A stretch of 64,000 bases of DNA from Minisyncoccota bacterium. GTDB lineage: Bacteria; Patescibacteriota; Minisyncoccia; Phycocordibacterales; UBA918. The stretch is from the NCBI GenBank assembly GCA_022841645.1, contig JALHRC010000003.1:6553-70552 (forward strand). Reading direction: 5' to 3'. The notes under the pieces were generated by a model that was not told the origin of the DNA, did no database searches, and saw only the letters and a program-made list of their open reading frames with translations. Positions 18,738-56,423 of the stretch are shown one piece after another; position 1 is the first letter of the stretch, and each line of letters starts with the position of its first letter. A program made the translations under genes and the position numbers.

Positions 18738-18810
18738 GCCCCCGTAGTTCAATGGATTAGAACAGTCCCGTCCTAAGGGATAGATGTAGGTTCGATTCCT
18801 ACCGAGGGCA
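18738..18810 (+). tRNA. tRNA-Arg (anticodon CCT)
   Basis: manual cloverleaf: acceptor GCCCCCG/CGAGGGC (one C-A mismatch), D-arm GTTC/GAAC, anticodon loop GTCCTAA, T-arm GTAGG-TTCGATT-CCTAC. Confidence 0.8.
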
Positions 18811-18836
18811 CAAACACGTTATAATAAAGTGTCACC

Positions 18837-19124: not shown

Positions 19125-19132
19125 TATATAAG

Positions 19133-19205
19133 TGCTTGGGGCCGGGCTCGAACCGGCGACCCCCTCCTCTTCAGGGAGATGCTCTACCAACTGAGCTACC
19201 CAAGC
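19133..19205 (-). tRNA. tRNA-Phe (anticodon GAA)
   Basis: reverse complement folds: acceptor GCTTGGG/CCCAAGC, D-arm GCTC-AGTTGGTA-GAGC, anticodon loop CTGAAGA, T-arm GCCGG-TTCGAGC-CCGGC. Confidence 0.9.
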
Positions 19206-29668: not shown

Positions 29669-29883
29669 TTATGTAAGAATGATTAAGAAATCGCCCGCGC
29701 CTCCCTCAAAAGAGTGTGCGGGCTTTTCGTTGTGTGGGGTATAATTTTCACGAACAACAATGAGTACTGGAGCTTGCCAACTCTGGCAAATGTCCATGAG
29801 AGCAAAGGTGCCCTCGTACGCGGGCCCGCACCAAAACCAGGTAGAGAAGTCCGGTGCAGGACTTGACCCAGAATCACGGATTT
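29669..29883 (-). pseudogene. decayed fragment of an EEP (exonuclease III-like) gene paralogous to 44434-45162
   Basis: minus-strand translation ...APDFSTWFWCGPAYEGTFALMDICQSWQ... aligns with APEQLAVPLSKLGYQTTFAPMDIRQSGQ of the EEP protein; nucleotide block 29778-29812 about 85% identical to 44980-45015; no start codon. Confidence 0.4.
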
Positions 29884-29990
29884 TTATTTCGTCTGCGACT
29901 CATAAAAATGCTCGTGTTCTTGGTCGGCCCCTCGCGTAGGTTGCTCCTTAGTGGTCGCAACCTACATGCGCCGGGGCTTCAAGTCCTGAC
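29851..29990 (+). repeat. repeat module A1: partial tRNA-Val 3'-end copy + AGAATCACGG + covarying hairpin
   Basis: CCGGTGCAGGACTTGACCC (29851-29869) repeats tRNA-Val 3' part; hairpin GTAGGTTGC...GCAACCTAC 29937-29966; homologous to module B1 at 45212-45350. Confidence 0.6.
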
Positions 29991-30044
29991 ACAACGCCCG
30001 CAGGGGCGTTGTTCACCACGCACCGTCGTCGCTATGCTCCTCAA

Positions 30045-30140
30045 GTGGGGTCAAGTTTCTAATTCGCTACGCTTATAAGAACTTGCTCCCCTGGCTCGCC
30101 TGTTTTCTGCTGTAGGGACGGAGCAGAAAACATGGCTCCG
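30045..30140 (+). repeat. repeat module A2 of structured repeat family
   Basis: GTGGGGTCAAGTTTCTAATTCGCTACGCTTATAAG...hairpin GTTTTCTGC..GCAGAAAAC (30102-30131)...CATGGCTCCGCCTCGCAC; aligns with C1/C2/D. Confidence 0.65.
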
Positions 30141-30182
30141 CCTCGCACTCGAGCCCGCACGCAAAACTGTTTGCGTGCTATA

Positions 30183-30220: not shown

Positions 30221-30230
30221 TATGCTCAAG

Positions 30231-30303
30231 TGCGCGGTGCAGGACTTGAACCTACGACCCCCACAATGTCAATGTGGTGCTCTACCAGCTGAGCTAACCG
30301 CGC
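30231..30303 (-). tRNA. tRNA-Val (anticodon GAC)
   Basis: reverse complement: acceptor GCGCGGT/ACCGCGC, D-arm GCTC-AGCTGGTA-GAGC, anticodon loop TTGACAT, T-arm GTAGG-TTCAAGT-CCTGC. Confidence 0.9.
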
Positions 30304-30479
30304 GTGAGTCGAAAGATGGTACCACGCGCCACAAAAATGTGAAATGCAGGTTTTGCTCGGGGGGCTTTTTTGAAGGTAAACCGCTGTTTTTTGGTGGCGG
30401 CGTAACCGTTCCGGGCTAAATGAGAATTAGTGAATTGTTCCAAAATTGCACCGGGTACTCTAGCGGGGAGGTGGTTTGT

Positions 30480-31648
30480 AGCCACGAGTAGGCAACTTTC
30501 ATGGCTTCAAATAAGTCTTATTTACAAACTGTGCATGAGAGCTAATGCACAAGTTCACAAACATTTGAGACTCCTTAGCAATAAGGAAACCATGAGAATA
30601 CGGAGCACGTTGAGAGGAGTGAAGGGGTTTGTGGTGGCGTGGGAGCGTCTGGTACGGTTCCGCTATATGATTAGCGACAAAGCCAAGGAACGGTGCCGGA
30701 TCCTCGCCTTCTGGGAACGACATGGTCTTGACGCCACGAGAGAAGCCTTCGGTGTCTCGCGGGCCACACTCTTCCGCTGGCAACAAGCGCTCCAAAAGAG
30801 ACAAGGGAAACTAGAAGGACTGAATGCCAAGAGCACGGCTCCGAGGCGAAGGCGACAGCGCACCATTCCTGACGCGGTCCGGAACCTCATCTTGAGCGAA
30901 CGCCTCATGGATCCTCGCCTCGGCAAAGACAAGCTGGCTCAGTTAATCAAAGACGACGGCCTCGGCACGTATAGTGCCTCGACCGTGGGGCGGATGCTTA
31001 AGGATCTGCAGCGACAGGGGGTACTCCCTGATCCACGACCGCTGTCCTTTCATGGGAAGACCGGCAGACACCACGAGAAGCACCAGTCATACAAGCCCAA
31101 GCAGCGCAGCACGCACCACGAAGGTGCCCTGGCGAAAGCCGATACGGTGGTGCGGTTTATCGATGGTCTAAAACGATACATCGTCACCGGTATCGATACT
31201 GAGACCAAGTTCGCGTTTGCCTATGCCTATCCGAGCCACTCGTCAGCGGCCGCCGCCGACTTCATGCGTCTCTTTAAAGCGGTGGCACCCGTCTCCATCA
31301 CCCACGTGCAGACTGACAACGGTTCGGAGTTCGCCTGTCACTTCGAAGCCACCTTGGGTGCATATGGGATAACTCACTTCCATACGTACCCGCGCTCTCC
31401 TAAACAGAATGCCGAGATCGAACGCTTTAACCGCACCCTCTGGGAAGCCTTTGCTCGGTACCGCAAGACCACCCTGGCTCATGACCTCTCGGCCTTTAAT
31501 CGAGAGCTGATGGAGTGGCTCCTCTGGTACAACACGAGGCGACCCCACCAGACGCTTGGCCAAGTATCACCGCTAGGGTACATTGTGTCGACGTTATCAG
31601 AGGTGGAGTCTCAAAGGTGCTGGACGAGTACAAGCTATTGACAAAACA
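30480..31648 (+). mobile_element. IS481-like insertion sequence (right end defined, left end uncertain)
   Basis: right terminus TACAAGCTATTGACAAAACA (31629-31648) resembles IS481 terminal repeat ...TACAACCTATTGACAGTTCACA (from memory); no matching left inverted repeat found. Confidence 0.4.
30592..31641 (+). CDS. IS481-family DDE transposase
   Basis: N-terminal HTH (GVSRATLFRWQQ), rve core with YNTRRPHQTLG; ATG 30592 with AAGGA RBS (ORF track extends to 30430); stop lies within a terminal repeat-like sequence. Confidence 0.8.
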   Translation: MRIRSTLRGVKGFVVAWERLVRFRYMISDKAKERCRILAFWERHGLDATREAFGVSRATLFRWQQALQKRQGKLEGLNAKSTAPRRRRQRTIPDAVRNLILSERLMDPRLGKDKLAQLIKDDGLGTYSASTVGRMLKDLQRQGVLPDPRPLSFHGKTGRHHEKHQSYKPKQRSTHHEGALAKADTVVRFIDGLKRYIVTGIDTETKFAFAYAYPSHSSAAAADFMRLFKAVAPVSITHVQTDNGSEFACHFEATLGAYGITHFHTYPRSPKQNAEIERFNRTLWEAFARYRKTTLAHDLSAFNRELMEWLLWYNTRRPHQTLGQVSPLGYIVSTLSEVESQRCWTSTSY

Positions 31649-31716: not shown

Positions 31717-32214
31717 ATGTCCTTTTTCACCACCCGCCGCCTGCTCGTCATCGCCGCGCTCGGCTTCGTCGTCGCCTGTGGGCCCGACAACCGCCCGCAG
31801 CCCGTCGCTTCGGCGCAGTCCGGCGCCCAGCCGGCCTTCGCGGTCATGCCGTCCACGGCCACGCCGCCGGCGCCCACCCAGGTCGCCATGCCGCTGACGG
31901 CCTCGGCCATCTCCGGCCGGTGGAGTCGCTCTGCGCAGTTCCTGGAGCGGAATCCGCAGATCGCCGATGCTCGTGTCGACTTCCAGGACGGTGTCATGAC
32001 CATCTATGATGCCCAAGGTGCTGTGCGCAATCGTGCTACCAGGGTCTCCGGCCAGTTCAATACCTATACGGAGTTCAGTGCCCAGACCATGACCCGGATC
32101 ACCTGGAGGTGCGATACCGTCTCCGAGGGCGCCGCGATTGCCTGCAATGCCGAGGCACTGTACCTCAACACCGGGAATACCAATCGTTGGACGTCCCGCT
32201 ACAGCAGAATCTGA
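31717..32214 (+). CDS. lipoprotein of high-GC (foreign) composition
   Basis: 165 aa; lipobox VVAC; about 68% GC versus about 53% host; followed by two strong terminators. Confidence 0.5.
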   Translation: MSFFTTRRLLVIAALGFVVACGPDNRPQPVASAQSGAQPAFAVMPSTATPPAPTQVAMPLTASAISGRWSRSAQFLERNPQIADARVDFQDGVMTIYDAQGAVRNRATRVSGQFNTYTEFSAQTMTRITWRCDTVSEGAAIACNAEALYLNTGNTNRWTSRYSRI

Positions 32215-32220
32215 GTCCAC

Positions 32221-32258
32221 AGGCCCTCTCCGCAGAAAACTTTCTGCGGAGAGGGCCT
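32221..32258 (+). terminator. perfect 18-bp-stem hairpin terminator
   Basis: AGGCCCTCTCCGCAGAAA-AC-TTTCTGCGGAGAGGGCCT; second hairpin GCGCCGGT-AACATGA-CCGGCGC at 32292-32314. Confidence 0.65.
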
Positions 32259-32351
32259 ACTAAAATTGGTGTACAATAAATAAGTTGCGTTTATGCGCCG
32301 GTAACATGACCGGCGCTTTTCCTTAGGTATAATTAGTCTACAATACTAGCC

Positions 32352-34310
32352 ATGTCCTACTCAGTCGTTGTACCTACTTACTGTCGTCCGGCGAAACTCA
32401 ATCAGTGTCTATGCACTTTGCTTGAACAATCTATCTTACCGGGGGAGGTTCTAGTTGTTGATGATGATTCCCCTGGGCAGGCCACACATCAAGTGTGTCT
32501 AGATTTGGATAATCTATTTCAGCAAAAAAATATCAACCTTAGGTACCTAAAACACAGTAAAAATCGCGGTCCTGCTGCGGCACGGAATACTGGGTTGCGA
32601 AGTGCCGTGTTTGAAACTGTCTTCTTTACAGATGATGACTGCATCTTGCCAACTGAGTGGGCTAGTAATCATATACGAACACATGAATGTCATGTCGACG
32701 CCGCTGCGGTCCATGGGTGGTACACTCCAAAGGCAGGTAAGAATATATATGACGAATACGAAGAGGTTTCTTTAAATCTTTTGCTTCCAGATTTTTTTAC
32801 GTCAGAAATATACGGAGACAGTCCCTTGGTCCCTCTTGCTAATACAGCAAATCTCTCAGTCAAAAAGAGTATTTTAGAGAAAGCCCAGGTATATTTTGAT
32901 GAAAGTATTGTTTTTACCGGTAATGAAGATTTTGAATTCTCCTTGAGTATAAATCAAAAAGGACTTAGTCGTGTCCATATCCCATTTTGTGTTATTCATG
33001 ACAGGGTGTGGGATCTCAGGAGCTACATCAAAGCTGGTGTTTTGCGAGGAAGAGGTCATGACTATTGCGTTCAGAAGTATTTTTTTGGAAGAGGACGAAA
33101 GAGTCTTTTTGCTTTTGTGTCAGTAGCATTGTTTAAGTCGTTTGAGTATGGTTCAAGAAGGTTGCATTTGGTTTTTCTTCTTACGTACTTAAGTCACTGG
33201 TTGGGCAAGACAGTCAACGTTGTAGCGAATTTCAAGCCGCCCCAACCGCTCACATTTGGTATAAGGGTTTCAAGCATGGCTTGGAAAAAAGAAGGTTTAA
33301 TTATCAGGAAACACGAGTGGCATCCCTTTTATGCGGCACATCGATACTCTAATAGGCCACCAAGCACAGGTAATACTTTTTGCTCAGTTATAGTGCCCAC
33401 TTATGATCGTTCGAGTTTATTAAAACTTCAACTTCCATATATTTTAAATCAGAGTATCAGCGCTGAACGTTATGAAATTATTATTGTTGATGACGGGTCA
33501 ACCGATGATACTGAAGAGGTTGTTTCGGATCTTGTTAAACGCAACCCAACTCATACTATTAGGTACATCTATCAAAAAAACCACGGTGCAGCAGCTGCTC
33601 GTAATGCTGGAGCAAAAATAAGTAAGGGCGACCTATTAATTTTTATTGATAGTGATGTGGTTCCTGACCGGCACTGGATTAGTGACCATGTATATGCACA
33701 TAGCTTATTTCCAGAAATATCAGCCGCCGGTGGAGGTCAAATTGTTGAAGCAGAAAACGCGACCATTTTTGACAAGCACAGAAATTCACTTTTTTGTAAT
33801 CAGTTTGCAAAAAGGTACCCTTATTCAACTCTAATTACTAACAATACCTTTCAGCGAGTTCATGCTTTTGACACAGGGAATTTGTCTATTAAAAAAAACG
33901 CCCTTGAATCCCTGGGCGGCTTTGATGAAGATCTATTAAGGCATCAAGATATGGAATTTGGTTTTAGACTACAGAACAGCGGTCGACTGGTTGCTTTGTT
34001 ACCAATTACGGTAAAATCGATAAGATCGACCACTTTCAGGGATTTTATAGATCTTGTCAGAAAACAGGCAATTTCGTACCCAATCCTTTTTCAAAAAATA
34101 AAGCCCTTACCGAAAGAATCATTGAGAATAAAAAACTCAATAGAGAACTACGGCATTTTAATGGCTTTGTTAAATTTTTTATTCAACATTAGCACCTTTG
34201 GCAGGGTTTATTTAATAGAGTGGTTTGTTTTAAAAAAGTACTACAAAACAGTACAGAGTCGTGAAGGCTCAAATTCAAATAATCACGATAGTTCGTTGTC
34301 CTCCGTTTAA
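32352..34310 (+). CDS. tandem family-2 glycosyltransferase (two GT-A domains)
   Basis: two copies of VVPTY..D(D)(D) and GxAAARNxG motifs (aa about 1-110 and about 335-440); AT-rich. Confidence 0.75.
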   Translation: MSYSVVVPTYCRPAKLNQCLCTLLEQSILPGEVLVVDDDSPGQATHQVCLDLDNLFQQKNINLRYLKHSKNRGPAAARNTGLRSAVFETVFFTDDDCILPTEWASNHIRTHECHVDAAAVHGWYTPKAGKNIYDEYEEVSLNLLLPDFFTSEIYGDSPLVPLANTANLSVKKSILEKAQVYFDESIVFTGNEDFEFSLSINQKGLSRVHIPFCVIHDRVWDLRSYIKAGVLRGRGHDYCVQKYFFGRGRKSLFAFVSVALFKSFEYGSRRLHLVFLLTYLSHWLGKTVNVVANFKPPQPLTFGIRVSSMAWKKEGLIIRKHEWHPFYAAHRYSNRPPSTGNTFCSVIVPTYDRSSLLKLQLPYILNQSISAERYEIIIVDDGSTDDTEEVVSDLVKRNPTHTIRYIYQKNHGAAAARNAGAKISKGDLLIFIDSDVVPDRHWISDHVYAHSLFPEISAAGGGQIVEAENATIFDKHRNSLFCNQFAKRYPYSTLITNNTFQRVHAFDTGNLSIKKNALESLGGFDEDLLRHQDMEFGFRLQNSGRLVALLPITVKSIRSTTFRDFIDLVRKQAISYPILFQKIKPLPKESLRIKNSIENYGILMALLNFLFNISTFGRVYLIEWFVLKKYYKTVQSREGSNSNNHDSSLSSV

Positions 34311-34324
34311 AAGCAACTCAATAT

Positions 34325-35851
34325 ATGGAATTAGACTCAGGGATATCAGATTTTACCACTCATGGTTCTGCAGAAAGACGTTTAATGTCTGAGGTTATTA
34401 AAGACTGCATATCTCACCCATTTACTCCGTTTAAGCCACTGCCAAGGAGCATTAAAGCCCTGGTTCTTTTTTGTTTATCCTGCGTTTGGTTTGTAGAGCT
34501 GCTTGGCAGGCGTAGATTCTTTACTGAAAGTAGTTTGGGCAATTTTTCAAATATTGATTCAAGAGTTCGGCGTGTTCTGGGTGAATTAGTCACACAGAAA
34601 GTGATTAAAATGTGGTACGTTTTTGCTACAAAATTATCGGGTGGGTCATCGGTGGTACAAGCGCTTATACAAATTGCTCCATACCAGGCTCCGAACGGCC
34701 TAATTTTTCCTTGGCCTGGTGGTTTAGCCTCTGGTGTAAGTATGAATCTGCACGACGCCATGTGCATAGCACTTGCCGAAACCGTCGAGCGCCACGCCTT
34801 GTACGCTTGGTCGTCAGAACGTAAATTTGAAGCTAGCTATAGAGAAGTTTTTAAAAAAGCTCTTCCGCTGCATGAGTTCAAACCTTACTCAGAGACACAA
34901 CTGTCAACACCGGATTTTTGGAACTGGTCTCTTAGGAATACTGATCAAAAGATGCTCTGGATGTGGTCAAATGAGTTTGTTTCTGGACTCCCCGTGTTAC
35001 TCCCCGCTCAACTCGTCTATTGTAACTATAACCAGGTTCGTCCCGACGAACAGCAGCTTTTAGAGGTTACTTCTAATGGCGTTGCAGCATCAACAAACCT
35101 TAAACTGGCGAGGCATAAAGCAATTTTGGAGGCAATTGAAAGGGACGCCTTTTTACTACATTGGCTTAACGAGACTCCACCCACATGCCTAGATATAGGT
35201 TCTATTGATGACGTTGAGATCCTGGGTCTGCTAGAAATTGTTAAAAAACATGACTACGAAATCACAATTCTCGATTTCCCCAATGATATACAGATACCCG
35301 TCATGGGAGCGCTCATGTTTGGTCCTTCTGGAAAAAGAGCCGTTACCATACAATTGGCTGCTGGCTTTGATGTAAGAGAAACCCTAAGGAAGGTAATTTT
35401 AGATTGCACTCGCTCGCTCCGCGTAGCTAATAGTGAAGTTTCGAAAAGCTTTTCCTACCAAGACATTATTAATAATCCCCAGTTAATTACAAATATAAAC
35501 AGCCGTCGCGAATTATGGCAACATCCAGAAATGATCCCCCATGTAAGTTTCTTAAAGAAAGGACAGGTCATTGGATGGCAGCAATATAAACATAACTATA
35601 GTCTACATTGCAGCATGTCTTTAAATGGTAAGGAGGAATGGGTGCGGACGCGTTTGCGATCACTAGGATATCAATGTTATGTAGCAAATATCACATCCAT
35701 CACAGCAAGACGTTATGGTCTGCATGTTACAAGAGCCTTTTTACCACAGCTCATACCAATGTATTTTGATGAGAAACGCGTCCCGCTCGGCATAATTAGA
35801 TTGAACAAAATGAGAGGCGGATTAAACACTGTTCCACACCCCTTCTTATAA
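34325..35851 (+). CDS. YcaO-domain protein
   Basis: GVSMNLHDAMCIALAETVERHALYAW and TSNGVAASTNLKLARHKAILEAIERDAFLLHWLN match the two hallmark YcaO ATP-binding motifs; about 130-aa N-terminal extension. Confidence 0.7.
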   Translation: MELDSGISDFTTHGSAERRLMSEVIKDCISHPFTPFKPLPRSIKALVLFCLSCVWFVELLGRRRFFTESSLGNFSNIDSRVRRVLGELVTQKVIKMWYVFATKLSGGSSVVQALIQIAPYQAPNGLIFPWPGGLASGVSMNLHDAMCIALAETVERHALYAWSSERKFEASYREVFKKALPLHEFKPYSETQLSTPDFWNWSLRNTDQKMLWMWSNEFVSGLPVLLPAQLVYCNYNQVRPDEQQLLEVTSNGVAASTNLKLARHKAILEAIERDAFLLHWLNETPPTCLDIGSIDDVEILGLLEIVKKHDYEITILDFPNDIQIPVMGALMFGPSGKRAVTIQLAAGFDVRETLRKVILDCTRSLRVANSEVSKSFSYQDIINNPQLITNINSRRELWQHPEMIPHVSFLKKGQVIGWQQYKHNYSLHCSMSLNGKEEWVRTRLRSLGYQCYVANITSITARRYGLHVTRAFLPQLIPMYFDEKRVPLGIIRLNKMRGGLNTVPHPFL

Positions 35852-35970
35852 ATTAAATCATTATTTTTTTGAATTTTACCTTTGCTTTATGAGAAAGGTG
35901 CAAGTAAAGTAGTGACCGTATGGTGTGCATAGACAGATTGCCTGCTTCTTGATCTGCTATAATAAATCCT

Positions 35971-37524
35971 ATGAGTTTTTCGTGGAAAACTAGCCTGGTC
36001 AAACTTTCTGAGAATCGCCCTCTCTGGCTTGTTGGGATGATGGTGCTGGTGTGGTTTGTTTTTGAGCCTGACTTCTTGGAGACAATATTTCAGTTTTTTG
36101 TAGTATTGTCGCAGGCTGCCGATGGTACGCCGTCAGGACAAGATTGCTCGTGCTGTGGAAATGCCCAAAATGGAGGGGAAAACTTCAACACATCAACACC
36201 TTTCTTGTGTGTTTATAAAAATGGTTCCTATGAAATTGACAATGATCTGATGTATGGCAAGAAGACAACTTTTTTTTCCAACTTTGAATTAGGAAGGCGT
36301 GTTTATGAAGAAGGAAGTCTCGTCCCTGAAATTTACAAAATCTCGACAAATCCTGATTTGATAGATGGAAAAATCAAACTACAGCTTATTGAGCTAGAAC
36401 CCGAGGATTCGTACATTGATACGGTTAAGTTATCAAAAATCATTTATCCTGCTACTGCTGAGTTGGTTGTTGATGCGTCTTTTAGCGGTATGTACGCGGT
36501 AAAACGTGACGACATTATTAACCGGGTGGGAGTTTCCGGGGTCAGCCTCACTCCGCAGTTTTTGGGCAATCGGCGATCAACTTCTCCTGAAATTAGTATT
36601 GAAAGATTATCTTCTGAACAACAATTCAATTCTCTTTGCCAAAAGAATCAGCCTGGCATACGCTTCGAAGACGGTGATGTCCTAGAAGTCACCGCTAAAG
36701 TTGAATCGCTTGAGGCCGATAAACTCCTTTTGTTTGTCGGGGCAAACTATCGAGACTGGCTGCTTTCTTCGGATGCGACACCGCGTACAGCACGGAAGAT
36801 CTTGAAGCGAACAGCTCTACTTAGTCCATTTTGGTCTAGTGCTGCTCGCGTTGCAATCATGATATTCATGCTTTTCCCGGTCTGGGTTGTTAGCTCGCTG
36901 CTGTCCACAAGCCGTCAGACAGCAAATGATGGTAGTGAAATGGACTTTATGCGAGCCTTTGGCATCCCCGCAACTAGTGCTGACGTTCCTTCTCGAACAC
37001 CGAAGTGTTTCAATGTGGAATATTGGGACGGTTCACATTTTGTGCCAATAACTTTTATTCAGCCACGATACTGTCACAGCACACTCGAGGCTGTGTCCGT
37101 ACCATGGGAAGCGGTGGACGGACAGGGTCTTCTTAAATTGAGACTAATCGCAACCAATACACACAATCTCTCTTATATCTCACTGGCCGCACCTTCGTCG
37201 TTGATGTTGTATAAATCAGCTGATCTCTCGCTCAGTTCGGCCCACTGCAATCGTGCTGGTGGTGACTCTACCGACGTACTCAGCTCGGAAAAAAATGCTT
37301 CATACGTTCATGTTATTCCTGCCGACACAATTGAGCTCGAGTTTACAGAACCAGGCAATTTTATTGCCAAAGAAGGCGAAAAGGAGTCCTACGTGATTAG
37401 TGTCCGCGGCTTTTACACTAGCCTTTCTGAGGAAAGTAAAGTAATTGCTGGAGACTGGGAATCAAGATTAAGTGAAGAGTCGGCTAACTGGCTGCAAGAA
37501 ATGGTTGCCATGGGACGACGCTAA
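35971..37524 (+). CDS. hypothetical membrane protein (517 aa)
   Basis: N-terminal and central TM segments; CSCCGNAQNGGE cysteine cluster; no known domain. Confidence 0.35.
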   Translation: MSFSWKTSLVKLSENRPLWLVGMMVLVWFVFEPDFLETIFQFFVVLSQAADGTPSGQDCSCCGNAQNGGENFNTSTPFLCVYKNGSYEIDNDLMYGKKTTFFSNFELGRRVYEEGSLVPEIYKISTNPDLIDGKIKLQLIELEPEDSYIDTVKLSKIIYPATAELVVDASFSGMYAVKRDDIINRVGVSGVSLTPQFLGNRRSTSPEISIERLSSEQQFNSLCQKNQPGIRFEDGDVLEVTAKVESLEADKLLLFVGANYRDWLLSSDATPRTARKILKRTALLSPFWSSAARVAIMIFMLFPVWVVSSLLSTSRQTANDGSEMDFMRAFGIPATSADVPSRTPKCFNVEYWDGSHFVPITFIQPRYCHSTLEAVSVPWEAVDGQGLLKLRLIATNTHNLSYISLAAPSSLMLYKSADLSLSSAHCNRAGGDSTDVLSSEKNASYVHVIPADTIELEFTEPGNFIAKEGEKESYVISVRGFYTSLSEESKVIAGDWESRLSEESANWLQEMVAMGRR

Positions 37525-37555
37525 TTTTTGAGCTAGTAATCTGAGCTAGTAATCT

Positions 37556-38668
37556 ATGAATAAAAAATTCATTCTAGGCGTCGTCGTAGCAGGTATTTTT
37601 CTGATAGGCATAATTTTTACAGTCTTCCTTTTTAACTCAAGTACTGAGCCTGCCGTAGAGCCTGGAAACGATTACACTACGGTGCCTGCCGTGACAGAGT
37701 CAGTACCAAAAGGAAAAATCTACCTGTCTCTTCGTACCCTGGGGACCAATCGGGTGGATTTATTCGCTTACGACTTCGAGAAGAAATCAATTGATCCGGT
37801 GCTGTCAACTGAGCCTGAAAAAATTCGCCATACAGGCGTTTTTAATGCTGAGGGCTCTCGCTTCGCCTACTTTGAGCTTTCGGAGTATAAGGAAGTCTAT
37901 GATTTTGGAACCTCTGGAGAAGACAATGAAATCCCTTGGAACCTTAAGGTCCGTGACTTTTCAAAGAAAAAAGCAACAACAGTATTCGATGTTATCTACA
38001 CTCTGAACACCCCTAGGTCACCGACATGGTCGCCTGATGGAACAAAGATTGCTTTTTCCTGGTGGTTAACTCAATCTGACATGGATGAGAAGTTCCGTGA
38101 TCTAAATAACTGGAGAATAAGCTGGCTTGAGCTTAACGACAAGTCTCAGTATAAAAATACAATTTCGCCATACTTCATTGGGACATCGCCTTTTTGGTCG
38201 CCCGATGGTAGCAGTATCATTTTTCAGAAGGCTGACGGCATATATCAAAAGTCGGTTGACACTCTTGAGGAGCAGCTTGTCCTCCCGCATCCGACAGGCA
38301 GTAGTACCAATCTTTTTTCTAAAATTGGTCTTTCGCCAGACAAGTCACTCTTTGCTTGGACATTTGTAGATTTTATTGAACATAATGCAGCTTCACTCGT
38401 TCTCTATCGGGTTGATTCATGGAGTCCATTCTCCGCACGCGCCGCTATTCGTCTTGAGGCCACTAACCCAGGATATCGTTATTACTGGCCGGTCTTTTCG
38501 CCAGATAACAAATACGTTACTGTACAGCGTATTATCCGTGACGCAGATAATAAGGCAGTGAGTTCTTCATTATGGGTATATGACGTTGAAACCGGAGAAA
38601 AGCAAGAAATTATTGACTTAATGGCCTACGACCCCGATGCCTTATTCATTTCTGATTGGAGATGGTAG
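37556..38668 (+). CDS. PD40/TolB-like beta-propeller repeat protein, membrane anchored
   Basis: repeated WSPDGTKIAFSW, WSPDGSSIIFQ, FSPDNKYVTVQ blades; N-terminal TM. Confidence 0.6.
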   Translation: MNKKFILGVVVAGIFLIGIIFTVFLFNSSTEPAVEPGNDYTTVPAVTESVPKGKIYLSLRTLGTNRVDLFAYDFEKKSIDPVLSTEPEKIRHTGVFNAEGSRFAYFELSEYKEVYDFGTSGEDNEIPWNLKVRDFSKKKATTVFDVIYTLNTPRSPTWSPDGTKIAFSWWLTQSDMDEKFRDLNNWRISWLELNDKSQYKNTISPYFIGTSPFWSPDGSSIIFQKADGIYQKSVDTLEEQLVLPHPTGSSTNLFSKIGLSPDKSLFAWTFVDFIEHNAASLVLYRVDSWSPFSARAAIRLEATNPGYRYYWPVFSPDNKYVTVQRIIRDADNKAVSSSLWVYDVETGEKQEIIDLMAYDPDALFISDWRW

Positions 38669-44433: not shown

Positions 44434-45162
44434 TTAGATCTGCTTTGTTAGGTGGGCGATAACCGCGGCATGATCGCTGATCCCAAAGCGTAAGGTGACG
44501 TTCTTGGCACTATAGGGTCCCTTGGTAAATAGGTAGTCCACCATGAATGAGTCAAAGAGGAATTTTAGCTCTGGGTTTTTACCGTGGCGGTGGAGCGAGG
44601 CATCAAGGCTGCTTTTATACTGTGCTGGTATAGTGTCGGTGTAGTGCTCCGTGAGGTTTGTGTAGAGGGGATTGTGCTGGCGGGGAATGTTAAAGTCGCC
44701 ACAGAGGATGTGTGGTGGTAGGGGAGCTAGTGTCTCTAAAAGCGCTGCCATGTTCGCCTGCTGTTCGGGACTGGCGATCTCACCTCGTGGCGACCAGGTG
44801 AAATGCGTGGTAGCGATAGTGTAGTCGCCGACGCTCGCGATAATGACTGCCCGCGCCACGGTCCCTGGCACGTTGGTGACATCAATCGGAACAATCGCCT
44901 CGGTGGGGCGGTGGTAGTACTCACTCCGTGCAGAGGAAGGGAGCCGACTGGCAAGTAATATGCCTTCGGTAAAGGCCTCTTGACCACTCTGGCGAATGTC
45001 CATAGGAGCGAAGGTGGTCTGGTATCCAAGTTTACTAAGCGGCACTGCCAATTGCTCGGGGGCCTCCTGAAGGCAGAGAACGTCCGCCCTCTCGGTCTCT
45101 AGAAAGGGAAGTACTTTATCGAGGTGAGTGATGCCTTCAACATTGAGCGAGATGAGTTTCAT
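44434..45162 (-). CDS. endonuclease/exonuclease/phosphatase (EEP) family protein, exonuclease III-like
   Basis: MKLISLNVEG...LCLQE N-terminus and C-terminal SDH motif typical of EEP fold. Confidence 0.7.
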   Translation of the reverse strand: MKLISLNVEGITHLDKVLPFLETERADVLCLQEAPEQLAVPLSKLGYQTTFAPMDIRQSGQEAFTEGILLASRLPSSARSEYYHRPTEAIVPIDVTNVPGTVARAVIIASVGDYTIATTHFTWSPRGEIASPEQQANMAALLETLAPLPPHILCGDFNIPRQHNPLYTNLTEHYTDTIPAQYKSSLDASLHRHGKNPELKFLFDSFMVDYLFTKGPYSAKNVTLRFGISDHAAVIAHLTKQI

Positions 45163-45211: not shown

Positions 45212-45350
45212 GGAAGCGGAGAGATTTGACCCAGAATCGCGGCTCTTTTACTTCGCTACGCTTGTAAAAGTGACTCGCGTTCTCGGTCGACACCTCGCGT
45301 GTTTTACTCTTTGACGTCGCAAAACACAAGCTCCGGTGCTTCAAATCCCT
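45212..45350 (+). repeat. repeat module B1: partial tRNA-Ser 3'-end copy + AGAATCGCGG + covarying hairpin
   Basis: GGAAGCGGAGAGATTTGACCC (45212-45232) repeats tRNA-Ser 3' part; TTCGCTACGCTTGTAAAAG 45252-45270; hairpin GTGTTTTAC...GCAAAACAC 45299-45327; T-loop-like GGTGCTTCAAATCCCT 45335-45350. Confidence 0.6.
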
Positions 45351-45387
45351 ACGTACCGTGCGCAGGCACGGTACTCCGCTTCCGCGA

Positions 45388-45421
45388 ACAAAATATGCGT
45401 CCACAAGGGACGCTATTTTGT
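45388..45421. terminator. terminator hairpin 3' of tRNA-Ser, nested in a 13-bp inverted repeat with the tRNA 3' end
   Basis: ACAAAATATGCGTCC-ACAA-GGGACGCTATTTTGT; outer CTCCGCTTCCGCG (45375-45387) complements CGCGGAAGCGGAG (45426-45438). Confidence 0.6.
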
Positions 45422-45426
45422 ACTCG

Positions 45427-45513
45427 CGGAAGCGGAGGGATTTGAACCCTCGATAGAGTTTCCCCTATGCCGGTTTTCGAAACCGGTACCTTCAACCACT
45501 CAGCCACGCTTCC
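45427..45513 (-). tRNA. tRNA-Ser (anticodon CGA), type II with long variable arm
   Basis: reverse complement: acceptor GGAAGCG/CGCTTCC, discriminator G, anticodon stem CCGGT/ACCGG loop TTCGAAA, T-arm GAGGG-TTCAAAT-CCCTC. Confidence 0.85.
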
Positions 45514-50985: not shown

Positions 50986-51044
50986 GTCGAGTAAGTGGAA
51001 TAGGGGCGTTCATACCAGTGTCGCAAGCCAGCCTGGTTATGTGT

Positions 51045-51147
51045 GTGGTCACGAGTTACTAATTCGCTACGCTCATAAGTACTCTCGACCCCGGCTCGGC
51101 CGTTTTAGCTTTAGGAAAAAGCTGAAAACATGCCTGCGGCCGTCACC
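51045..51147 (+). repeat. structured repeat family copy C1
   Basis: GTGGTCACGAGTTACTAATTCGCTACGCTCATAAGTACTCTCGACCCCGGCTCGGCC-hairpin GTTTTAGCTTT..AAAGCTGAAAAC-ATGCCTGCGGCCGTCACC. Confidence 0.7.
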
Positions 51148-51176
51148 GCGACACGTCAGCGACATTAGTCGCTCTT

Positions 51177-51296
51177 GTGGTCACCAGTCACTAAGCGTAT
51201 TTGTTCACTACGTTCCAAATCCGCTAAGTGCTGTCGACCCCGCCTCGCGGTTTCCGCCGCTTTGACGGCGACGGAAACATCGCTGCGGCCGTCACA
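51177..51296 (+). repeat. structured repeat family copy C2 (tandem to C1)
   Basis: GTGGTCACCAGTCACTAAGCG...CCGCTAAGTGCTGTCGACCCCGCCTCGCG-hairpin GTTTCCGCCGC..GCGACGGAAAC-ATCGCTGCGGCCGTCACA. Confidence 0.7.
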
Positions 51297-51325
51297 CGAG
51301 CCGAAACTGAAAGCTTTCAGTTTCT

Positions 51326-51370: not shown

Positions 51371-51376
51371 GTCGTG

Positions 51377-51448
51377 TGACCCCACCGGGAGTCGAACCCG
51401 GCTTTAAAGCTTGAAAAGCTTTCGTCCTAACCGATAGACGATGGGGCC
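51377..51448 (-). tRNA. tRNA-Glu (anticodon TTC)
   Basis: reverse complement: acceptor GGCCCCA/TGGGGTC, anticodon stem AAAGC/GCTTT loop TTTTCAA, T-arm CCGGG-TTCGACT-CCCGG. Confidence 0.8.
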
Positions 51449-54855: not shown

Positions 54856-55003
54856 GGCACCGGTCACAAGTCACTAACTATAATTGGCCGCTACGCTCCA
54901 ATTCTAGTAAGTGCTCGCGACCCGTGAAAAGCAATATTGAATTGCTTTTCACCGCGGCCCGTTTGTCCCCAAAGACAAACGGGCAACGCTGCGGCCGGCA
55001 GTG
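54856..55003 (+). repeat. structured repeat family copy D (not tRNA-linked; 3' of ftsZ)
   Basis: CGGTCACAAGTCACTAACTATAATTGGCCGCTACGCTCCAATTCTAGTAAGTGCTCGCGACCC-hairpin GTGAAAAGCAAT..ATTGCTTTTCAC-second hairpin GCCCGTTTGTC..GACAAACGGGC-AACGCTGCGGCCGGCAGTG. Confidence 0.65.
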
Positions 55004-55151: not shown

Positions 55152-56423
55152 TTACTTGAGCTTGGATCGACGCAGGAAAGCGGGCACGGCGCCCCAGTCG
55201 TCATCGCTATCTTCGTCGATTGGGTCAACTGGCTTCGGGTCGCGCTTTGGCAAGTCTGCCGGGCGCGGTGTCGGTGCTGCAATGGGCGTCTCGTTCACTA
55301 CCGGCTCTGGCTCACGGCGGGGCATTGATAGTGAATTAAAAATCTTGCCGCGGGACTCAACGCGTTCATCGCGGTCTTCAAAATCATCGTGGCGCTGACC
55401 GATTATGGGCGTTGGGGCTGGTGTAGCCATTGGAGCACGGCGCGCAATCGGATGGCTGACCATCGTCTCCTCCGGGAAGCCGGTTGCAATCACGGTCACT
55501 TTGATTTCGTTCTTCTTCAATTTATCATCGCGGATAGCACCGAATATCACCTTGGCATGGGGATCGATCGATTCAGTAATGACCCGCGCTGCGTCTTGTA
55601 CTTCCAGCATACCGAGGTCGTCGCCACCAGCAATCGCAAAGAGCACTCCCTTGGCTCCTGTGATCGATACTTCAAGGAGAGGTGAATTAATAGCCATCCG
55701 AGCAGCTTCTTCGGCGCGCTTTTCGCCGGAAGAGACACCCACGCCCATGAGCGCTGAGCCGGCGTTTTCCATCACGCTACGGATGTCAGCAAAGTCGACG
55801 TTAATGATACCTGGCATGGTGATGAGGTCAGAGATACCTTCGACGGCTTGCTTCAAAACATTGTCGCACTGTTCAAAGGCGCTGCGCACAGTGGTTTCCT
55901 TATCGACAATCGCGAGGAGGCGATCATTGGGGATGGTGATGAGTGCGTCTACTTCTTTCTTAAGCTCCTCGATGCCTTGGAGTGCTAGGCGCATACGTTC
56001 TTGACCCTCAAAGAGAAACGGCTTAGTGACCACGCCGACGGTGAGAGCACCACTTTCACGAGCGATCTTGGCGATCACCGGTGCAGCACCAGTACCGGTA
56101 CCGCCCCCCATACCGCCCGTGATGAAGATCATGTCCGAGCCTTTGATGGCGTTTGCGATCTCTTCCCTGGTTTCTTCGGCAGCGCGGCGACCCATGTCGG
56201 GGTTGCCACCAGCACCAAGACCACGGGTCAGGTTTTTACCGATGTGGATTTTTTTCTTGGCAAGTGAGTTATGAAGATCTTGTGCGTCACTGTTGACCGC
56301 AATGAACTCCACACCCTTCACCTTCGCCCCGACCATGTAGTTGACGGCATTGCCACCAGATCCACCAGCACCGACAACGCGGATGCGCGCGAACGATTCA
56401 ACGTCAGACCGTATCTGTTCCAT
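55152..56423 (-). CDS. ftsZ: cell division GTPase FtsZ
   Basis: [16 protein letters not shown] tubulin signature; disordered C-terminal tail. Confidence 0.95.

What the first reader, a model, noticed from the sequence alone, without database searches (positions are those of the whole stretch)
45212..45513. Locus B: tRNA-Ser(CGA) with mirrored architecture to locus A, including an intact EEP gene
GGAAGCGGAGAGATTTGACCC-AGAATCGCGG (45212-45242) duplicates the tRNA-Ser 3' end (CGGAAGCGGAGGGATTTGAACCC at 45427-45449) about 190 bp downstream of the gene. Module B1, with TTCGCTACGCTTGTAAAAG and a covarying hairpin, lies between them. A further CTCCGCTTCCGCG (45375-45387) forms a 13-bp inverted repeat with the tRNA acceptor end around the terminator hairpin. 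The flanking gene is a complete EEP nuclease (44434-45162), whose decayed paralog flanks locus A. So the unit [EEP gene]-[partial tRNA copy + AGAATCRCGG]-[module]-[tRNA] is present twice, with different tRNAs, and each partial copy matches its own tRNA.
Basis: seen in the sequence. Interest (0 to 1): 0.55.

Follow-up and report, generated by a model that had tools for sequence, protein, structure and literature searches.

The report
Host-mirroring palindromic module behind tRNA genes
The stretch behind tRNA-Ser is one copy of a widespread, apparently undescribed family of small structured non-coding modules in ultra-small (Patescibacteria) bacteria that sit behind tRNA and some protein genes and carry a mirror-image copy of their host gene's own end; the neighbouring nuclease gene is a bystander.

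Summary
The sequence features are real. GGAAGCGGAG occurs three times in 64 kb, all within 45212-45437 (0.12 expected). Loci A and B align over about 150 nt (E 1e-15).

The interpretation needs correcting. The EEP gene is intact, but locus A holds only a 46-nt EEP-like relic. EEP homologs in five other loci (three genomic contexts) have no tRNA or module nearby.

The region belongs to a module family with six copies in this window, all in tRNA sense. Many more occur in Saccharibacteria, Paceibacteria and Nomurabacteria. Of 153 detected copies, 75 lie within 600 nt behind a same-strand tRNA (more than 18 tRNA species) and one lies behind an opposite-strand tRNA. Others follow protein genes such as clpP.

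The layout is: host 3' end (X), terminator, inverted copy X', a covarying core of two long hairpins, and often a direct copy of X.
- X' matches its own host in 33 of 35 loci.
- A direct copy of X is present in 21 of 35.
- No enzyme gene travels with the module.
- There is no Rfam match and I found no paper describing it.

My best reading is a non-autonomous, host-copying insertion cassette that acts as a folded single strand. A cis-acting 3'-trailer RNA is the main rival. The mechanism is inferred, not shown.

The parts
45426..45513 (-). tRNA-Ser(CGA), no encoded CCA. Its last ~20 nt plus trailer form host segment X (proximal copy).
   Evidence: ARAGORN; Rfam tRNA 56.4 bits; promoter-like site 45558-45529.
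45388..45425 (.). Trailer plus bidirectional terminator-like hairpin (GC stem-loop 45397-45413, A-tract and T-tract arms). This is the centre of the long palindrome.
   Evidence: Scored as a terminator on both strands; sequence.
45375..45387 (-). X' part a: inverted copy of the tRNA acceptor 3' strand plus trailer (plus strand CTCCGCTTCCGCG).
   Evidence: In the minus-strand fold it pairs with 45212-45220.
45353..45374 (-). 'hp': 9-bp hairpin with a CUGC loop that splits X'. It is semi-conserved across the family.
   Evidence: Fold. The same hairpin and loop appear in L126, L157, L187, L105, L140 and L144.
45340..45352 (-). X' part b: inverted copy of the T-loop and T-stem 3' strand (plus strand TTCAAATCCCTAC).
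   Evidence: Sequence. Pairs with 45221-45227 in the fold.
45290..45339 (-). Core hairpin P2: outer stem, conserved purine internal loop (GGA/GAG in the family consensus) and a variable apical hairpin.
   Evidence: CM alignment of B.
45228..45288 (-). Core hairpin P1: long irregular hairpin with cap AAGC-GUA-GCGAA (plus strand TTCGCTACGCTT at 45252-45263).
45212..45229 (-). Distal direct partial copy of the tRNA-Ser 3' end (X), from the T-loop to the acceptor end.
   Evidence: General in the family: direct copy in 40/54 and 21/35 loci.
44434..45162 (-). EEP (PF03372) gene. A bystander, not part of the module.
29867..29987 (-). Module A1 (same subfamily as B), with a partial tRNA-Val copy at 29851-29866.
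   Evidence: 14 bits.
30042..30154 (-). Module A2 (canonical subfamily), lying between A1 and tRNA-Val (30230-30303).
   Evidence: 96 bits.
29773..29818 (-). 46-nt EEP-like relic, 80% identical to EEP codons 45-61.
51042..51301 (-). Modules C1 (51042-51152) and C2 (51174-51301) behind tRNA-Glu (51376-51448).
   Evidence: 99 and 50 bits. An orthologous tRNA-Glu locus in L253 has no module behind the tRNA.
54857..54963 (-). Module E, not next to a tRNA. It lies behind the ftsZ-like gene 55152-56423.
   Evidence: 13 bits. Conserved at the same position in L252 and L253.

Best explanation
SHOWN. 45212-45425 is a divergent copy of a Patescibacteria-wide family of ~110-200-nt non-coding modules. The modules lie directly behind the 3' end of genes, about half of them tRNA genes, always in the same orientation as the host gene.

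Read in tRNA sense, the layout is: host 3' end X, trailer/terminator hairpin, X' (reverse complement of that host's own 3' end, often split or preceded by a small CUGC-loop hairpin), a core of two long covarying hairpins (P2 with a conserved GGA/GAG purine loop; P1 capped by UAUGAGC-GUA-GCGAAUUA), and in about 60% of copies a direct repeat of X (18-66 nt, starting in the T-loop).

'Module B1' is the core. EEP is an unrelated neighbour.

INFERRED (about 0.45 of my belief). The module is a non-autonomous insertion cassette that works at the DNA level.
- It lands behind the terminator or 3' end of a gene.
- Its host-matching arms are copied from the target, for example by fold-back or template-switch synthesis around the terminator hairpin, or by integration of a folded single strand whose X/X' stem mimics the target duplex, as with CTX phage attP or integron attC.
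- The gene end is regenerated when the junction falls inside the gene.
- The tRNA-sense strand, folded as a single strand, is the active form.
- Enzymes are supplied in trans by the host or by an unlinked gene.
For: Family membership and layout:
- The CM built from 31 copies finds exactly six copies in the window, all on the minus strand, including B at E 0.002.
- nhmmer finds relatives only in Patescibacteria among 120 genome hits.
- 52 of 120 metagenome loci have a tRNA to the right on the opposite strand and none in the other orientation.
- Of 153 copies, 75 have a same-strand tRNA upstream and 1 has an opposite-strand tRNA.

Host mirroring:
- An inverted copy of the locus's own tRNA end or trailer lies within 45 nt 5' of the core in 33/35 loci (mean score 11.1 against 6.1 for non-cognate tRNAs).
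- A direct copy is present in 21/35 loci.
- The same X-X'-core-X layout occurs at the clpP stop codon.

Structure:
- 89% of cells are paired against 71% in shuffles (0/500 reach the observed value); 135 double-change cells against 45; slid controls give 29-41%.
- B folds at -80.6 kcal/mol, z -5.8.

Mobility:
- Modules of different subfamilies are stacked behind one tRNA (A1/A2 and C1/C2).
- Module content differs at the orthologous tRNA-Glu/ATPase locus: 2 in the window, at least 2 in L251, 0 in L253. L252 has a relic with Glu-type arms but no tRNA.
- A perfect 66-nt direct repeat flanks the module in L105.
- A 97-nt core is 100% identical behind tRNA-Leu and tRNA-Arg in metagenome contigs from the same accession series, while X' matches each host.

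DNA level rather than RNA level:
- A terminator-like hairpin separates the tRNA from the module in 29/39 loci.
- No promoter-like site for the module at loci A or B.
- G-U counts are symmetric on the two strands.
- The GNA triloop cap and the purine loops occur on one strand only.

Non-autonomous: no recurrent neighbouring protein family and only one hit in the viral contigs.
Against: - No transposase or recombinase is identified.
- No filled/empty pair with identical flanks was found, so the exact insertion junctions are not defined.
- The direct repeat varies from 0 to 66 nt, unlike any known transposase footprint.
- Conserved loops with covarying stems, retention of module E at one locus across genomes whose flanking P-type ATPase orthologs are ~80% identical, and the orientation lock are all equally typical of a functional RNA.
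- The identical cores at two tRNAs could result from gene conversion rather than recent movement.
- The GNA-triloop argument for single-stranded DNA rests on my own knowledge, not on a test.
Confidence: 0.5

Rival explanations
1. The module is a cis-acting structured RNA in the 3' trailer or 3' UTR. It is transcribed with, or by read-through from, the host gene. X' pairs with the host RNA's own 3' end (or alternatively with the distal X), and the conserved core binds a protein or acts in 3'-end processing, decay of read-through transcripts, or stabilisation.
For: - Covarying stems with invariant loops, including a non-palindromic GGA/GAG purine internal loop.
- Strict co-orientation with the host gene.
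- X' complementary to the host 3' end in 33/35 loci.
- In 6-10 of 39 loci there is no terminator before the module, and in 18 there is one after it, so the module can lie inside the tRNA transcription unit, as in L210 and L206.
- Module E is retained at one locus in diverged genomes, with compensatory changes.
- The purine-rich loops lie on the sense strand.
Against: - 29/39 loci, including locus B, have a canonical terminator between the gene and the module.
- No promoter-like site for the module at loci A or B.
- No excess of G-U pairs on either strand.
- Hosts are unrelated in function (tRNAs, clpP, ftsZ).
- Stacked copies of different subfamilies and differing module content between relatives look like insertion.
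- No Rfam family matches.
Confidence: 0.3
2. The modules are miniaturised integrative elements, or att-site remnants, of tRNA-targeting islands. A tyrosine integrase encoded elsewhere recombines at the T-loop. The element carries a replacement 3' end (proximal X), and the displaced original end is the distal X.
For: - A direct repeat starting in the T-loop and running through the tRNA end is the classical signature of integrase-mediated tRNA integration (my own knowledge). It is seen here.
- At clpP the distal copy differs from the proximal one mostly at third codon positions, as if the two ends came from different alleles.
Against: - No integrase is linked to the modules in 120 loci.
- Only one hit in 2.9 million viral contigs.
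- 14/35 copies have no direct repeat.
- The model gives X' no role.
- More than 18 tRNA species would need as many specificities while keeping one conserved core.
- Identical cores with different host-specific arms argue that the arms are not carried by the element.
Confidence: 0.1
3. One reading: a duplicated unit [EEP gene]-[partial tRNA]-[module]-[tRNA], with the EEP nuclease functionally tied to, or mobilising, the repeat.
For: A 46-nt EEP-like relic lies on the same side and in the same orientation at locus A. B and A1 are each other's closest relatives.
Against: - Only 46 nt remain, and they lie outside the distal tRNA-Val copy.
- EEP homologs elsewhere have no tRNA or module nearby.
- No EEP recurs at 120 module loci.
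- Four other modules in this window have no EEP next to them.
Confidence: 0.03
4. Purely local events. Tandem duplication of the tRNA 3' end plus spacer, as in the E. coli tyrT 178-bp repeats, and palindrome extension arose independently at each locus, with no mobility and no function.
For: - Partial tRNA copies at the ends of repeats behind tyrT are a known precedent (my own knowledge).
- Palindrome arms can be homogenised by template switching.
Against: A conserved ~100-nt core with a 21-nt invariant cap is shared by hundreds of loci in different classes of Patescibacteria and behind unrelated genes. That cannot arise independently.
Confidence: 0.02

Closest known systems
tRNA-targeting integrative elements (tyrosine-integrase att sites at the T-loop)
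   Same: A direct repeat of the tRNA 3' end, beginning in the T-loop, flanks the insert. The gene stays intact because its 3' end is regenerated.
   Different: The insert is ~150-200 bp with no integrase. There is an extra inverted copy of the target. One conserved core is found behind more than 18 tRNA species and behind protein genes. About 40% of copies have no direct repeat.
Folded single-strand recombination sites (CTX phage attP(+) hairpin with XerCD; integron attC)
   Same: After integration those sites give the order target site, loop, inverted copy, element, target site. That is the X-loop-X'-core-X order seen here. Structure is conserved more than sequence, there are strand-specific unpaired bases, the orientation is fixed, and the units are non-autonomous.
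   Different: No dif-like or GTTRRRY core site and no IntI or Xer link was found. Here the stem sequence changes with each host gene. This is a resemblance recalled from my own knowledge, not a tested membership.
REP/BIME and MITE-type intergenic repeats
   Same: Small, multi-copy, palindromic and non-coding. They sit behind genes near terminators, with mosaic stacking of subfamilies.
   Different: The termini are not fixed inverted repeats but copies of the local host gene end. No RAYT or parent IS is evident. The core has non-palindromic conserved purine loops.
E. coli tyrT downstream 178-bp repeats / RtT RNA
   Same: Repeats directly behind a tRNA gene, each ending in a partial copy of that tRNA's 3' end.
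   Different: The Rfam scans, whose library should include RtT, returned no match. The tyrT repeats belong to one locus, whereas this family is dispersed over many tRNAs and genomes and carries an inverted copy as well.

Membership tests
tRNA-targeting integrative element (tyrosine integrase) | Direct repeat of the tRNA 3' end at both junctions | tested here: met
   At locus B: 45212-45229 against 45428-45446. In the family: 40/54 and 21/35 loci.
tRNA-targeting integrative element (tyrosine integrase) | Integrase gene inside or adjacent to the element | tested here: not met
   The insert is ~200 nt with no ORF. No recurrent neighbouring protein family in 120 loci. The rve gene at 30430-31641 lies on the 5' side of tRNA-Val and is a DDE type.
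MITE | Small, non-autonomous, multi-copy | tested here: met
   Six copies in 64 kb and 153 copies in 136 loci.
MITE | Conserved terminal inverted repeats shared by all copies, and a short target duplication of fixed length | tested here: not met
   The arms differ at every locus and match the host gene. The direct repeat is 0-66 nt.
REP/BIME | Extragenic palindromes behind genes, in mosaic arrays | tested here: met
REP/BIME | Cognate RAYT (Y1 HUH) gene flanked by the repeats, and a conserved 5' GT[AG]G foot | not tested
   Only 64 kb of this genome is held. No recurrent neighbouring gene in 120 loci.
Any Rfam 15 RNA family (including RtT, tmRNA, YrlA, ribozymes) | Covariance-model score at or above the gathering threshold | tested here: not met
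   Only the five tRNAs pass. Nothing credible at E up to 10 in loci B and C. Five loci that hold the cap motif in other contexts (L146, L151, L198, L207, L229) give no match either.
Folded ssDNA att site (attC / CTX attP) | Integrated order: target, loop, inverted copy, element, target | tested here: met
Folded ssDNA att site (attC / CTX attP) | Recombinase core motif (GTTRRRY or dif-like 11-6-11) and a cognate IntI or XerCD dependence | tested here: inconclusive
   By eye, no such motif in P1 or at the junctions. No recombinase data are available. This was not tested rigorously.
   0 of 5 EEP-homolog loci (3 contexts) have a tRNA or module within 3 kb. Locus A has only a 46-nt relic.

The most novel reading that the evidence does not exclude
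The conserved core may be a new kind of mobile cassette, or RNA device, whose internal 'arm' is rewritten at each site to the reverse complement of the host gene's 3' end. That would mean target-templated fold-back synthesis at a terminator hairpin, or integration of a folded strand that mimics its target. Such a cassette could colonise the end of any gene without its own enzyme and without destroying the gene. This would be a previously unrecognised way for selfish or regulatory DNA to spread in the streamlined genomes of Patescibacteria.
Probability: 0.35. Interest if true: 0.85.

Novelty: new variant of a known kind. Interest (0 to 1): 0.62.

Why it matters
Patescibacteria have roughly 1-Mb genomes that shed non-functional DNA, yet this window devotes six loci (about 1.5% of its bases) to one module family. 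The family also marks about half of the tRNA 3' flanks I sampled in relatives.

- If the modules are mobile, they show a target-copying insertion route with no linked enzyme. That would be new for bacterial repeats.
- If they are RNAs, they form a large unannotated class of tRNA-trailer and 3'-UTR elements in a phylum where almost no non-coding RNAs are known.
- In practice, the long palindromes break assemblies at tRNA genes: the Logan contigs I fetched that carry the EEP gene all end inside this one. The partial tRNA copies could also mislead scans for integrated elements.
- The model R1 and the 21-nt cap give a direct handle for a census and for experiments in cultivable Saccharibacteria.

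Tried and rejected
- tmRNA, permuted tmRNA or another tRNA-like RNA gene: ARAGORN and Rfam find nothing.
- Small ORF in the core: the reading frame is not conserved because P2 varies in length, and there is an early stop in C1 (read).
- Hammerhead-like core: the cap resembles CUGAUGA...GAAA, but G5 and A15.1 are replaced and the flanking arms pair with each other, so it does not fit.
- boxA-like or 23S-like (I-CeuI site) resemblance of the cap: judged coincidental.
- EEP paralog at locus A: the family HMM finds nothing beyond 46 nt.
- Linked enzyme: all-against-all clustering of ORFs within 4 kb of 120 modules gives no family in more than 8 loci.
- Strand choice by G-U counting: symmetric, so uninformative.
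- Filled/empty pairs among the fetched loci: none with both flanks orthologous.
- Recombination tract around the clpP module: the identity block extends 1.5 kb downstream, so it is not specific to the module.
- Phage origin: one hit in the viral contigs, of a different type.
- Literature: sequence strings and keyword searches returned nothing relevant.

Full report
**Observation.**
- The window carries five tRNA genes. tRNA-Ser(CGA) is at 45426-45513 on the minus strand.
- GGAAGCGGAG occurs three times in 64 kb: at 45212 (+), 45428 (+) and 45374 (-). The expectation is 0.12, and no shuffle reaches three.
- So the tRNA 3' end is present as a direct partial copy 197 nt behind the gene and as an inverted copy just past a hairpin that scores as a terminator on both strands.
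TTCAAATCCCT (45342-45352) continues it on the other side of a 22-nt hairpin (45353-45374). The whole last ~20 nt of the tRNA plus its trailer are therefore mirrored.
- Locus A (tRNA-Val) and locus B align at E 1e-15 over about 153 nt.

**The EEP gene.**
- 44434-45162 encodes an intact PF03372 protein with hundreds of homologs in Patescibacteria and other phyla.
- At locus A, tblastn, blastn and a family HMM find only a 46-nt stretch (29773-29818, 37/46 identical), and it lies outside the distal tRNA-Val copy.
- EEP homologs in five other loci (three genomic contexts) lie next to glmS, with no tRNA and no module within 3 kb.
- EEP is a neighbour, not part of the unit. The relic remains unexplained.

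**A family, not two loci.**
- nhmmer links B to A1. It links a second module at tRNA-Val (A2) to two modules behind tRNA-Glu (C1, C2) and to one behind an ftsZ-like gene (E).
- A covariance model built from 31 copies from other genomes ranks exactly these six first, all on the minus strand. B scores 21 bits (E 0.002). Everything below them is noise.
- A genome-collection scan for the loop motif, followed by nhmmer, found relatives only in Saccharibacteria, Paceibacteria, Nomurabacteria and unclassified Patescibacteria. Almost all lie directly behind a tRNA gene in the same relative orientation.
In 52 of them a tRNA lies 10-430 nt away on the opposite strand to the cap as searched, and never the other way round. 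More than 18 tRNA species are involved.
- Over all sequence held, 153 copies were detected. Of these, 75 lie within 600 nt behind a same-strand tRNA and one lies behind an opposite-strand tRNA. Among 21 copies not ascertained by the exact pattern, 11 are tRNA-linked.

**Anatomy (tRNA sense).**
- The order is: host 3' end X; trailer and usually a terminator-like hairpin; X', the reverse complement of X; a small hairpin with a CUGC loop that precedes or splits X'; the core; and often a direct copy of X.
- Within 45 nt 5' of the core, an inverted copy of the locus's own tRNA end or trailer is present in 33 of 35 unique single-module loci. The mean score is 11.1, against 6.1 for non-cognate tRNAs.
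- The direct copy is present in 21 of 35 loci.
- Two junction classes exist. In one, the junction is in the T-loop and the repeat is 18-66 nt, including a perfect 66-nt repeat that contains the terminator in L105. In the other, the junction is at the tRNA end and there is no real repeat.
- X' always mirrors the proximal, functional copy of X.
- The same layout occurs at a protein gene. The last 25 nt of clpP, including the stop codon, are followed by their inverted copy, then the core, then a diverged direct copy whose differences fall mostly on third codon positions.

**Structure.**
- The core has a stem G-N-C/G-N'-C, a conserved GGA/GAG purine internal loop, a second stem and a variable hairpin (P2).
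- It then has a long hairpin (P1) with a bulged A, purine internal loops and an invariant cap, UAUGAGC-GUA-GCGAAUUA.
- On 31 sequences, 89.3% of cells pair, against 70.7% in shuffles (0/500 reach the observed value). There are 135 double-change cells against 45. Slid controls give 29-41%.
- Module B folds into this architecture, closed by X'/X, at -80.6 kcal/mol (z -5.8) on the minus strand and at -70.4 kcal/mol on the plus strand.
- G-U counts are equal on the two strands. The purine loops and the GNA triloop exist only on the tRNA-sense strand.

**Is it mobile?**
- Different subfamilies are stacked behind one tRNA (A1 with A2, C1 with C2). That argues for separate arrivals rather than tandem duplication.
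- At the orthologous tRNA-Glu/P-type ATPase locus, the window has two modules. One relative (82% ATPase identity) has at least two. Another (82%) has none within the 146 nt before the next gene. A third (80%) keeps a module with Glu-type arms but has no tRNA-Glu.
- Two contigs from the same metagenome accession series carry a 97-nt core that is 100% identical, one behind tRNA-Leu and one behind tRNA-Arg. Their terminators are unrelated, and the 10-12 nt just 5' of the core is the exact complement of each host's own end.
- No protein family recurs near the modules. The cap is virtually absent from viral contigs.

**DNA or RNA?**
- A terminator-like hairpin lies between the tRNA and the module in 29 of 39 loci, including locus B.
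- No promoter-like site for the module was seen at loci A and B.
- This disfavours a dedicated transcript. However, 6-10 of the 39 loci lack such a terminator, and 18 have one after the module.
- The conserved loops, the covariation and the retention of module E with compensatory changes in diverged genomes fit a functional RNA as well as they fit a protein-recognised single-stranded DNA.
- I therefore put about 0.5 on a non-autonomous, host-copying insertion cassette. About 0.3 goes to a cis-acting trailer or 3'-UTR RNA and about 0.1 to miniaturised integrase-dependent elements. The EEP-unit and purely local-duplication readings get very little.

**Comparison with known systems.**
- No Rfam 15 family matches.
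- I found no paper that describes the element.
- The closest known things are tRNA att-site duplications, the integrated form of folded single-strand att sites (CTX phage, integron attC), REP/BIME repeats and the E. coli tyrT/RtT repeats. Each shares some features and fails on others, as set out in the membership table.
- The distinctive trait is an internal segment that is complementary to whichever gene the module sits behind.

**Verdict.**
- The real object is larger and more general than the finding suggested, and it is probably undescribed. Its mechanism is still inferred.

Noticed in passing
L006-L125, e.g. L016, L046, L085, L093, L119, L045, L111: The 12-nt cap core TTCGCTACGCTC also sits in hairpins of many non-Patescibacteria genomes. 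A frequent form is CGAAGCAATC-loop-GATT[GA]C TTCGCTACGCTCG TAATGAC (Fibrobacteraceae, Bacteroidales, Proteobacteria, Gracilibacteria). It may be a far wider hairpin-repeat superfamily, or it may be convergence.
   Followed up: partly
It is sometimes followed by a second hairpin with a GAGCG[TG]AGCGA loop.
   Followed up: no
L207: A ~37-nt insert carrying the cap lies between two overlapping or adjacent genes. It is flanked by a perfect 19-nt direct repeat (GCGACATTTTTTACTTATG) and contains an 8-nt inverted copy of the flank. This is the same X-cap-X'-X signature in miniature.
   Followed up: partly
L140 vs L144/L191: A 97-nt module core is 100% identical behind tRNA-Leu(TAG) and tRNA-Arg(TCT) in contigs from the same metagenome accession series. 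The terminators are unrelated and each X' matches its own host.
   Followed up: yes
L252:2200-2345: A module whose arms match the tRNA-Glu 3' end, but no tRNA-Glu gene is present in 6.9 kb. This looks like an orphan left behind after loss or rearrangement of the tRNA.
   Followed up: partly
window 30430-31641 (+): An rve/HTH DDE transposase (IS481/IS3-like by its Pfam domains) lies immediately on the 5' side of tRNA-Val.
   Followed up: partly
window 32000-38000: A low-GC block (0.40-0.44, against about 0.53 elsewhere) lies just downstream of the transposase. It may be a horizontally acquired island.
   Followed up: no
L001-L005: The five Logan contigs shown that carry the EEP gene, from five different runs, all end 220-290 nt upstream of it. 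That is inside the tRNA-Ser/terminator palindrome, so the palindrome breaks assemblies.
   Followed up: partly
window 18738-18811 and 19132-19205: tRNA-Arg(CCT) and tRNA-Phe have no module. Both are followed at once by a coding region, with no terminator.
   Followed up: partly
L127, L129, L200, L084: In one subfamily the P2 apical loop itself carries GAGCG[AT]AGCGA, a second copy of the cap motif that includes the GCGAAGC mini-hairpin.
   Followed up: no
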